The position numbers and the translations under genes are program-made. Shown piece after piece: positions 39,402 to 39,619 of a stretch of 41,245 bases of DNA (position 1 is its first letter; each line of letters starts with the position of its first letter). This DNA is from a virus: the UHGV virus genome UHGV-0086138. The stretch is one strand, 5' to 3'. A model generated the notes under the pieces. It made no database searches. It was not told where the DNA came from and was given only the letters and a program-made list of their open reading frames with translations.

Positions 39402-39551
39402 CATGGCATTTTTCATGGTACTGATTTTCGGTGACGGTATATAAAACGGTACGGTAATAATTAAGTTTTGGAAAAATGTTGTCACTCAATTGGTTATGCT
39501 TGTCGTAAATAATTGAGTGGGAGTGATTTGATCCCTGCACTATGAATGAAC

Positions 39552-39581
39552 AAAACCCTCTGTTACTACAGAGGGTTTTTT
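39552..39581. terminator. bidirectional terminator at prophage/host junction
   Basis: hairpin CCCTCTG-TTACTA-CAGAGGG flanked by A4 and T6. Confidence 0.65.
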
Positions 39582-39619
39582 ATCTTCAAGAATTATAGGC
39601 TTGAAGTTACTTACATCGA

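What the first reader, a model, noticed from the sequence alone, without database searches (positions are those of the whole stretch)
39402..39619. Prophage right junction between the Rz/Rz1 genes and host lipoprotein cluster
Phage-like sequence ends after the Rz stop (39401); from 39620 the minus-strand genes look chromosomal (secreted coiled-coil protein, glycine-zipper lipoprotein, 63-aa membrane protein, reminiscent of the E. coli yfgI-yfgH-yfgG cluster by size and order, from memory). The interval contains a 9-bp inverted repeat CACTCAATT...AATTGAGTG (39483-39519) and a bidirectional terminator (39552-39581). The attachment site should lie here. The internal tRNA-Arg is not the integration target.
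Basis: inference. Interest (0 to 1): 0.4.

Follow-up and report, generated by a model that had tools for sequence, protein, structure and literature searches.

The report
Epsilon15-like prophage attR in guaA
This is the right-hand attachment site of an epsilon15/phiV10-type prophage inserted into the last codons of the E. coli guaA gene, a well-documented integration site, so the finding is correct but ordinary.

Summary
Phage lysis genes end at 39401, and the minus-strand genes from 39620 are the chromosomal yfgI-yfgH-yfgG, present in all 5426 complete E. coli genomes searched. The prophage/host junction lies in the interval.

The exact junction is the 17-bp core ATTGAGTGGGAGTGATT (39512-39528). 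This is the last four codons and stop of guaA (IEWE*) plus 2 nt. Phage DNA therefore runs 110 bp past the Rz stop, as the P arm of attP (39402-39511). Host DNA starts at 39512, not 39620.

The hairpin at 39552-39579 is the native guaA/yfgI terminator. The 9-bp inverted repeat exists, but about 6% of shuffles give one. Its arms are two opposed IHF-like sites, as annotated in epsilon15.

Joining the P arm and core to the attL arm of a sister lysogen rebuilds an attP found uninterrupted in free Uetakevirus genomes (phiV10, epsilon15, ZX5). The published attP/attB core of these phages is attgagtgggaatgatt in the 3' end of guaA. About 9-10% of complete E. coli genomes carry such a prophage there.

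One small addition: the G at 39523 comes from a host allele, which places strand exchange within ATTGAGTGGGA.

Already known; low interest.

The parts
38919..39401 (+). Rz-like spanin gene (i-spanin), the last phage ORF before the junction
   Evidence: Pfam DUF2514, E 2.9e-43. Homologous position to epsilon15 'putative Rz-like protein'.
39118..39393 (+). Rz1-like o-spanin ORF embedded in the +1 frame of Rz, with lipobox LALAGC
   Evidence: ORF list. Same embedded layout, ending 8 nt before the Rz stop, as the annotated Rz1 of epsilon15 and phiV10.
39402..39511 (.). P arm of attP: phage DNA retained on the prophage side of attR
   Evidence: Absent from empty-site genomes, whose alignment starts at 39512. 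Contiguous with the core and the int-proximal arm in free Uetakevirus genomes.
39431..39456 (+). Cluster of arm-type integrase-binding motifs: GTGACGGTAT, then AACGGTAC, then GGTA
   Evidence: 39431-39451 is invariant in 9 attP sequences from E. coli, Salmonella, Enterobacter and Klebsiella phages. GTGACGGTAT is annotated as an 'integrase' binding site in epsilon15 at 26651-26660 and recurs in the P' arm. Binding itself is inferred.
39484..39496 (+). IHF-consensus-like site ACTCAATTGGTTA.
   Evidence: 12/13 match to WATCAANNNNTTR. Corresponds to the epsilon15 annotated IHF site 26700-26722. The TCAAT..TTA positions are conserved in the 9-phage alignment.
39506..39518 (-). Second, opposed IHF-consensus-like 13-mer ACTCAATTATTTA. 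It contains the right arm of the inverted repeat (39511-39519) and overlaps the left edge of the core.
   Evidence: 12/13 match. Corresponds to the epsilon15 annotated IHF site 26720-26742. Function not tested.
39512..39528 (+). attR common core ATTGAGTGGGAGTGATT, a 16/17 match to the published attgagtgggaatgatt
   Evidence: Shared by attL and attR of MLI114 and SW070919, by attB of BW25113 and by attP of the phages. The published core for ZX5, phiV10 and epsilon15 is in PMC9782041.
39512..39526 (+). Displaced original 3' end of guaA (ATT GAG TGG GAG TGA = IEWE*), now cut off from the gene by the prophage
   Evidence: Alignment with BW25113 guaA, which ends at L002 3015.
39515..39521 (.). Proposed 7-bp strand-exchange (overlap) region GAGTGGG, flanked by imperfect inverted AATAATT (39508-39514) and AGTGATT (39522-39528)
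   Evidence: Inference. The G at 39523 is a host allele while all phages have A, so the crossover lies left of 39523. A related GIsul2-like island has its own base at core position 3 in attR, so its crossover lies right of position 3. The GIsul2 site is reported as GAGTGGGA (PMC9376610).
39529..39619 (.). Host guaA-yfgI intergenic region (B' side)
   Evidence: Aligns with BW25113 with 3 differences. An exact haplotype match exists in 19 listed empty-site genomes.
39552..39579 (+). Native intrinsic terminator between the convergent guaA and yfgI genes
   Evidence: 12-bp stem, -20.1 kcal/mol, z -5.3. Identical in K-12-derived BW25113.
39620..40159 (-). yfgI (host)
   Evidence: DUF5384, E 7.5e-62. 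RefSeq annotation.
40175..40693 (-). yfgH glycine-zipper lipoprotein (host)
   Evidence: Pfam glycine zipper 2TM. RefSeq annotation.
41004..41195 (-). yfgG (host)
   Evidence: DUF2633, E 3.6e-28. RefSeq annotation.
13146..13222 (-). Phage-borne tRNA-Arg(TCT), not an integration target
   Evidence: ARAGORN. Lies between the terminase and portal genes inside the prophage.

Best explanation

A phage tyrosine integrase of the P4-like/epsilon15 cluster is encoded just left of the window, next to attL. It recombined the phage attP, which lies between the Rz stop and the int start, with attB. The shared core is ATTGAGTGGGAATGATT, which covers the last four guaA codons, the stop and 2 nt.

After integration:
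- guaA is completed at attL by the phage's copy of the core and is followed by a phage-supplied copy of the guaA terminator.
- The original guaA end, the native terminator and yfgI-yfgH-yfgG sit right of the prophage at attR.

Within the window:
- 39402-39511 is the phage P arm, with arm-type Int motifs at 39431-39456 and an IHF-like site at 39484-39496.
- 39512-39528 is the core.
- 39529 onward is host DNA.

Strand exchange most likely occurred in GAGTGGG (39515-39521).

Shown: the boundaries, the core, attP continuity in free phages, and the host identity of the flank. Inferred: which protein binds which motif, and the exact cleavage positions.
For: 1. Empty-site genomes align from 39512 onward, across the guaA stop and into yfgI.
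2. In the sister lysogens MLI114 and SW070919 the order is guaA - core - integrase ... Rz - core - yfgI, and the 17-bp core is directly repeated.
3. An attP rebuilt from window 39402-39528 plus the MLI114 attL arm is found uninterrupted (100% coverage, 82-96% identity) between Rz and int in phiV10, epsilon15, ZX5, SPN1S, BUCT554 and others. Tyrion and BUCT711 cover 85-90% of it. In the 9-sequence alignment GTAAATAATTGAGTGGGAATGAT is the same in all eight free phages, and the window differs only by the G at 39523.
4. PMC9782041 reports, with PCR and Sanger verification, that attgagtgggaatgatt is the attP/attB core of ZX5 in the 3' end of guaA, and cites it as the attP of phiV10 and epsilon15. 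PMC8138268 places the epsilon15 integrase cluster as targeting the guaA 3' flank.
5. The integrase of the sister lysogen has Arm-DNA-bind_3, Phage_int_M and Phage_integrase domains.
6. Of 5426 genomes, 494 have Rz-attR-yfgI contiguous and 554 have this attR. The empty junction is present in 4548.
7. 19 listed empty-site genomes carry exactly the host haplotype seen right of 39522 (G plus TGATCCC), while all 8 free phages aligned have A.
Against: - The window's own attL and integrase are not in the window, and its source genome is not in the collection as one piece. The left and middle of the window are 100% identical to SW070919 and the right end to MLI114/MLI121. The attL side is therefore read from sister lysogens.
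- No experiment here shows that this particular prophage can excise.
- The IHF and Int assignments rest on consensus matches and on another record's annotation.
- If position 39523 were inside the overlap, heteroduplex resolution could also give attL = A and attR = G, so the crossover mapping is likely rather than proven.
Confidence: 0.95

Rival explanations
1. One reading: phage DNA ends at the Rz stop (39401), the whole 39402-39619 interval is host intergenic DNA, and the att core sits somewhere around the inverted repeat.
For: The interval has no ORF, and the junction is indeed inside it.
Against: Empty-site genomes have no counterpart of 39402-39511. That stretch is contiguous with int-proximal DNA in free phages and is conserved from E. 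coli to Klebsiella phages.
Confidence: 0.02
2. yfgI-yfgH-yfgG are phage morons, and the prophage extends beyond 39620.
For: They are small secreted or lipoprotein genes on the opposite strand at a prophage end, which is a typical moron layout.
Against: They are present in all 5426 complete E. coli genomes, directly abutting guaA in the 4548 genomes with an empty site, including K-12 and BL21 derivatives. Free phage genomes go from Rz straight to int.
Confidence: 0.01
3. The G at 39523 is a point mutation acquired after integration, or a phage allele, and says nothing about where strand exchange took place.
For: Only the window and two probably clonal genomes (MLI114, MLI121) show the G-type attR at 100% identity. 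A single transition is cheap.
Against: 19 listed empty-site genomes match at 100% a 97-nt attB carrying the same G together with the same downstream TGATCCC variant. All eight free phages aligned have A. In MLI114 attL has A and attR has G, as expected for exchange left of this base.
Confidence: 0.12
4. The 9-bp inverted repeat is a functional element in its own right, such as an operator, a hairpin or the pair of core-type Int sites.
For: It is a perfect 9-bp repeat. Its right arm overlaps the core. The left arm is conserved 8-9/9 in most phages aligned.
Against: The 19-bp spacing is too wide for core-type sites around a 6-8 bp overlap. 5.8% of shuffles give such a repeat. In epsilon15 the left arm keeps only 6/9 while the right arm is fixed by guaA. 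The conserved positions (TCAA....TTA) are those of the IHF consensus rather than those needed for pairing. No Rfam family matches.
Confidence: 0.1

Closest known systems
[quoted passage not shown]
   Same: Same 17-bp core at 16/17. Same position (last guaA codons). Same attP layout between Rz/Rz1 and int. P-arm sequence 94-96% identical to the E. coli phages and 82% to epsilon15, with invariant arm motifs.
   Different: The attR core has G instead of A at position 12, which here is a host allele. The tailspike, acyltransferase and early-region modules are mosaic relative to the named phages. This affects the prophage, not the att site.
GIsul2 and related guaA-targeting genomic islands (epsilon15 cluster of IntSXT-type tyrosine recombinases)
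   Same: Same attB. The reported crossover sequence GAGTGGGA lies inside the core. The integrase is 54% identical over 396 aa. About 48 bp of the attR-side arm is alignable with the phage P arm.
   Different: It is a mobilizable island (IncQ-type repA/repC, trbJKL, ars genes) and not a phage. The rest of its arms is unrelated. Its attP has C at core position 3.
Lambda-type attP architecture (arm-type Int sites, IHF sites, C-O-C' core)
   Same: The integrase has an N-terminal arm-binding domain. ACGGTA-type motifs are repeated in both arms in direct and inverted orientation. IHF-like sites lie 22-34 bp from the core centre. There is an imperfect inverted repeat around a 7-bp spacer.
   Different: There is no sequence similarity to the lambda sites. 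No binding data exist for this system. No Xis sites were identified here.

Membership tests
Uetakevirus (epsilon15/phiV10-like) prophage attR at guaA | Core attgagtgggaatgatt at the junction, overlapping the guaA stop codon | tested here: met
   39512-39528 ATTGAGTGGGAGTGATT is a 16/17 match. It aligns with the guaA end of BW25113. The published core is in PMC9782041.
Uetakevirus (epsilon15/phiV10-like) prophage attR at guaA | The phage-side arm of attR is contiguous with the int-proximal arm in free phage genomes (attP between Rz and int) | tested here: met
   The rebuilt 317-bp attP matches 30 phage records at >=80% coverage (36 records match in all), including phiV10, epsilon15 and ZX5. Alignment A2.
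Uetakevirus (epsilon15/phiV10-like) prophage attR at guaA | Direct repeat of the core at attL, next to a tyrosine integrase gene and an intact guaA | tested here: met
   Met in the sister lysogens MLI114 (L003 9934-9950, int 10141-11391) and SW070919 (L016 853, int 1060-2310). The window itself starts about 1.6 kb to the right of attL, so its own attL was not seen.
Uetakevirus (epsilon15/phiV10-like) prophage attR at guaA | Prophage gene content of the genus: epsilon15-type capsid staple gp10, T7 gp14-like core protein, GH19 endolysin, DUF2514 Rz | tested here: met
   RefSeq annotation of the near-identical prophage. Pfam on the window's endolysin and Rz. The phage hits are classified as Uetakevirus.
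Uetakevirus (epsilon15/phiV10-like) prophage attR at guaA | Integrase-dependent integration and excision at this site | not testable with these tools
   Shown experimentally for ZX5 in PMC9782041, not for this prophage.
Lambda-type (arm-binding) tyrosine integrase att site | [quoted passage not shown] | tested here: met
   PF13356 E 3.9e-20, PF22022 E 5.3e-12, PF00589 E 1.8e-19 on the MLI114 integrase.
Lambda-type (arm-binding) tyrosine integrase att site | Repeated arm-type motifs in both arms, distant from the core | tested here: met
   ACGGTA occurs 3 times in the P arm (window 39434-39456). The P' arm has one direct and one inverted copy. The blocks are invariant in 9 phages. Binding was not tested.
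Lambda-type (arm-binding) tyrosine integrase att site | IHF sites between the arm sites and the core | tested here: inconclusive
   Two 12/13 matches to WATCAANNNNTTR at positions annotated as IHF sites in epsilon15. This is consensus-level evidence only.
Lambda-type (arm-binding) tyrosine integrase att site | 6-8 bp overlap region flanked by inverted core-type sites | tested here: inconclusive
   AATAATT-GAGTGGG-A(G/A)TGATT fits. Natural heterologies bracket the exchange to core positions 4-11 when the phage and the GIsul2-like island are combined. Cleavage sites were not determined.
tRNA-gene-targeting prophage integration | The att core overlaps the 3' end of a tRNA gene at the prophage boundary | tested here: not met
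   The only tRNA (Arg-TCT, 13146-13222) is internal, between the terminase and portal genes. The boundary core is in guaA.
Intrinsic (rho-independent) terminator | G+C-rich hairpin followed by a T-run, downstream of a stop codon | tested here: met
   39552-39579, 12 pairs, -20.1 kcal/mol, z -5.3, followed by a T-rich tail (TTATCTTC; the last four stem bases are also T). It lies 26 nt after the original guaA stop and 40 nt after the yfgI stop on the other strand.

The most novel reading that the evidence does not exclude
Natural sequence differences between the partners map the strand-exchange region of the guaA-targeting (epsilon15-cluster) integrases to the 7-8 bp GAGTGGG(A). This is narrower than the published 17-bp 'core' of the phages. 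The flanks are imperfect inverted AATNATT core-type sites.

Two differences support this. The host allele G at 39523 is kept in attR while the phage A is kept in attL. An island-specific C at core position 3 is kept in the attR of a GIsul2-like island.

Uetakevirus prophages (about 10% of complete E. coli genomes) and GIsul2-type resistance islands would then use one and the same exchange site and homologous arm sequence. They would compete for, or could sit in tandem at, the same guaA site.
Probability: 0.55. Interest if true: 0.2.

Novelty: already known. Interest (0 to 1): 0.1.

Why it matters
The finding delimits the prophage to the base, which is useful for annotation. The right end is 39511/39528. 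The insertion preserves guaA, because the phage restores the last four codons, the stop and a near-copy of the terminator. This agrees with the reported lack of fitness cost of ZX5 lysogeny (PMC9782041).

It also shows that the guaA 3' end is a busy integration hotspot in E. coli. Roughly 9-10% of complete genomes hold a Uetakevirus-type prophage there, and GIsul2-like islands use the same site with a related integrase. None of this changes current understanding.

Tried and rejected
- Rfam search of 39250-39750 at E <= 1 found no family, so there is no known sRNA or riboswitch in the interval.
- The repeat finder on the sister lysogen with a 12-nt seed did not report the att core. The repeat is 11 + 5 nt around a mismatch in MLI114. 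The core was found instead by aligning with an empty site and by a regular expression.
- I tried to read Kropinski et al. 2007 (PMC2698709) for the original epsilon15 att description, but it is not held. I relied on PMC9782041 and PMC8138268, which cite it.
- I looked for the window's source genome. No single complete genome matches the whole window: the left and middle are 100% identical to SW070919 and the right end to MLI114/MLI121. The window's own attL could therefore not be fetched.
- The promoter scan gave one weak minus-strand match at 39485-39457, no more than the shuffles give, and I disregarded it.
- I considered the 9-bp inverted repeat as the pair of core-type Int sites and rejected this on spacing (19 bp) and on its pattern of conservation.

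Full report
**Observation**

The interval 39402-39619 lies between the stop of a DUF2514 Rz-like spanin gene (38919-39401, with an embedded Rz1-like ORF at 39118-39393) and the stop of a minus-strand DUF5384 gene (39620-40159).

- The 9-bp inverted repeat is exact: CACTCAATT at 39483-39491 and AATTGAGTG at 39511-39519.
- A strong hairpin with a T-run sits at 39552-39579: 12-bp stem, -20.1 kcal/mol, z = -5.3.
- A perfect 9-bp inverted repeat with a gap of at most 60 bp occurs in 5.8% of shuffles of the interval. Alone it is weak evidence of anything.

**Host side**

A search of 38900-41245 against 5426 complete E. coli genomes matched all of them.

- In genomes without the phage part, such as BW25113 and BL21(DE3), the match to 39300-39700 starts at query base 213, which is window 39512, and overlaps the end of guaA.
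- The pairwise alignment shows identity from ATTGAGTGGGA(A/G)TGA onward. This is the last four codons and stop of guaA (IEWE*). It continues through the hairpin into yfgI.
- The hairpin is therefore the native terminator between the convergent guaA and yfgI genes.
- 39529-39619 is ordinary host intergenic DNA.
- yfgI-yfgH-yfgG are not morons.

**Phage side and the left end**

The window's right end is 100% identical to strains MLI114 and MLI121. Its left 34 kb is 100% identical to SW070919 at the two stretches tested. No single genome in the collection matches the whole window.

In MLI114 the locus reads guaA - core - tyrosine integrase - early genes - terminase - tRNA-Arg - portal - capsid (including an epsilon15-type 'capsid staple gp10') - tail fibre - acyltransferase - holins - GH19 endolysin - Rz - core - yfgI.

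- Window position 1 maps about 1.6 kb to the right of attL, inside the MT-A70 methyltransferase gene.
- attL reads ...GCTACC ATTGAGTGGGAATGATT AACAGCTAAC...
- attR reads ...GTAAATA ATTGAGTGGGAGTGATT TGATCCC....
- SW070919 shows the same arrangement, with A in both cores.
- The MLI114 integrase has Arm-DNA-bind_3, Phage_int_M and Phage_integrase domains.

**Rebuilding attP**

I joined window 39402-39528 to the phage arm of MLI114 attL. This gives a 317-bp sequence that occurs uninterrupted, at 100% coverage, between Rz and int in free phage genomes.

- BP9, EC.W1-9, HEMP4, ZX5 and phiV10 match at 94-96% identity.
- epsilon15, SPN1S and BUCT554 match at 81-85% identity. Tyrion and BUCT711 match over 85-90% of the query at 78-86% identity.
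- All classified hits are Uetakevirus.

In the 9-sequence alignment, GTAAATAATTGAGTGGGAATGAT is identical in all eight free phages, and the window differs only by the G at 39523. The block GTGACGGTATATAAAACGGTA (window 39431-39451) and a P'-arm block containing GTGACGGTATTACC are invariant in all nine sequences. An inverted TACCGT lies in the same P' arm.

The epsilon15 record annotates GTGACGGTAT in both arms as integrase sites, and annotates two IHF sites at the positions corresponding to window 39480-39502 and 39500-39522.

Each matches the IHF consensus WATCAANNNNTTR at 12/13:
- + strand 39484-39496, ACTCAATTGGTTA
- - strand 39506-39518, ACTCAATTATTTA

The conserved positions in the left arm are the IHF-consensus ones (TCAA....TTA). 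In epsilon15 only 6 of 9 pairing positions survive. The inverted repeat is best read as two putative IHF-like sites, the right one partly dictated by guaA coding sequence. It is not a pairing element.

**Literature**

[quoted passage not shown] It states that the same sequence is the attP of phiV10 and epsilon15.
- PMC3293862 notes a phiV10-like prophage in guaA in an EHEC strain.

The site, its core and its target are therefore already described. The window holds another instance.

**Frequency**

| Measure | Genomes of 5426 |
|---|---|
| Empty guaA-yfgI junction (at least 80% of a 97-nt attB query) | 4548 |
| This attR at at least 80% coverage | 554 |
| Rz-attR-yfgIHG contiguous | 494 |

About 9-10% of complete E. 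coli genomes carry such a prophage at this site.

**A small refinement**

The window's attR core has G at position 12 (39523). All eight free phages aligned have A.

- A 97-nt hypothetical empty site carrying that G and the window's downstream variant (TGATCCC) matches 19 listed empty-site genomes at 100%. The G is therefore a host allele.
- In MLI114, attL carries A (phage) and attR carries G (host). This is what is expected if strands were exchanged to the left of position 12, within ATTGAGTGGGA.
- A GIsul2-like island in strain VE-F5 occupies the same site. Its integrase is 54% identical to the prophage integrase over 396 aa.
- That island's attR has ATCGAGTGGGAATGATT, with C at position 3 coming from the island, while its attL has T. 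This places the island's exchange to the right of position 3.
- GIsul2 is reported to insert at GAGTGGGA in guaA (PMC9376610).

Together these point to an overlap within GAGTGGG(A), window 39515-39522. In attP it is flanked by AATAATT and AATGATT, which are imperfect inverted repeats. In attB it is flanked by CATT...AATG. This is inference. A heteroduplex resolved by replication could in principle give the same products if position 12 lay inside the overlap. Established work on lambda-type systems shows that heterology in the overlap strongly depresses recombination.

**Mechanism**

Integration splits guaA 15 nt before its end. At attL the phage copy of the core restores ATT GAG TGG GAA TGA. 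The phage P' arm supplies a hairpin, AACCCTCTGTTTTT(A/G)CAG(A/G)GGGTTTTT, that differs from the host guaA terminator AACCCTCTGTTACTACAGAGGGTTTTT only in the loop in the free phages. guaA therefore keeps its coding sequence and a terminator.

The displaced original end, the native terminator and yfgI remain at attR. Excision would need Int (plus presumably Xis and IHF) acting on attL and attR. Nothing here tests whether this prophage is still active.

**Verdict**

- Phage DNA runs to 39511.
- The core is 39512-39528.
- Host DNA starts at 39512.
- The target is the guaA 3' end.

The feature is a textbook attR of a described phage group at its described site.

Noticed in passing
window 36555-36648 (also L003 45745-46094): A perfect octanucleotide tandem repeat, CTGTGCTG x11.8, lies at the 3' end of the minus-strand acyltransferase ORF (36485-37423) next to the tail-fibre gene. 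The homologous gene in MLI114 has 43.8 copies. The unit is not a multiple of three, and copy number varies between otherwise close prophages. This is a candidate slipped-strand switch that alters the C-terminal reading frame of a serotype-conversion-type gene.
   Followed up: partly
L018 (NZ_AP027953.1, E. coli VE-F5) 8100-20410; compare window 39464-39528: A GIsul2-like island (IncQ-type repA/repC, trbJKL, ars genes) occupies the same guaA 3' site. Its integrase is 54% identical to the prophage integrase over 396 aa. About 48 bp of its attR-side arm is alignable with the phage P arm. Its attR core has C at position 3. Phage and resistance island share the att module.
   Followed up: partly
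L003 about 9993-10022 (attL side, outside the window); host copy at window 39554-39581: The phage P' arm carries a near-copy of the host guaA terminator. In the free phages the stem is identical and only the loop differs. It sits 44 nt after the core, against 24-25 nt in the host. The phage therefore replaces both the last codons and the terminator of guaA, which suggests the attP region derives from a guaA 3' region.
   Followed up: partly
window 39529-39536 and the homologous positions in L002, L005, L006, L007: The first bases right of the core are unusually polymorphic among E. coli strains: TGACCC, TGATCCC, TTGATCCC and TTAATCCC. This may be ordinary intergenic variation or scars of repeated integration and excision.
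   Followed up: no
whole window compared with SW070919 and MLI114: The prophage is mosaic. Window 1-2500 and 22000-34000 are 100% identical to SW070919. 38900-41245 is 100% identical to MLI114/MLI121 and 98.6% to SW070919. The tail-fibre/acyltransferase region differs in length in both. No complete genome in the collection matches end to end.
   Followed up: partly
window 13146-13222 (-): A phage-borne tRNA-Arg(TCT) lies between the terminase and portal genes, at the same position as in the MLI114 prophage. It probably supplements the rare AGA codon. It is not an att site.
   Followed up: no
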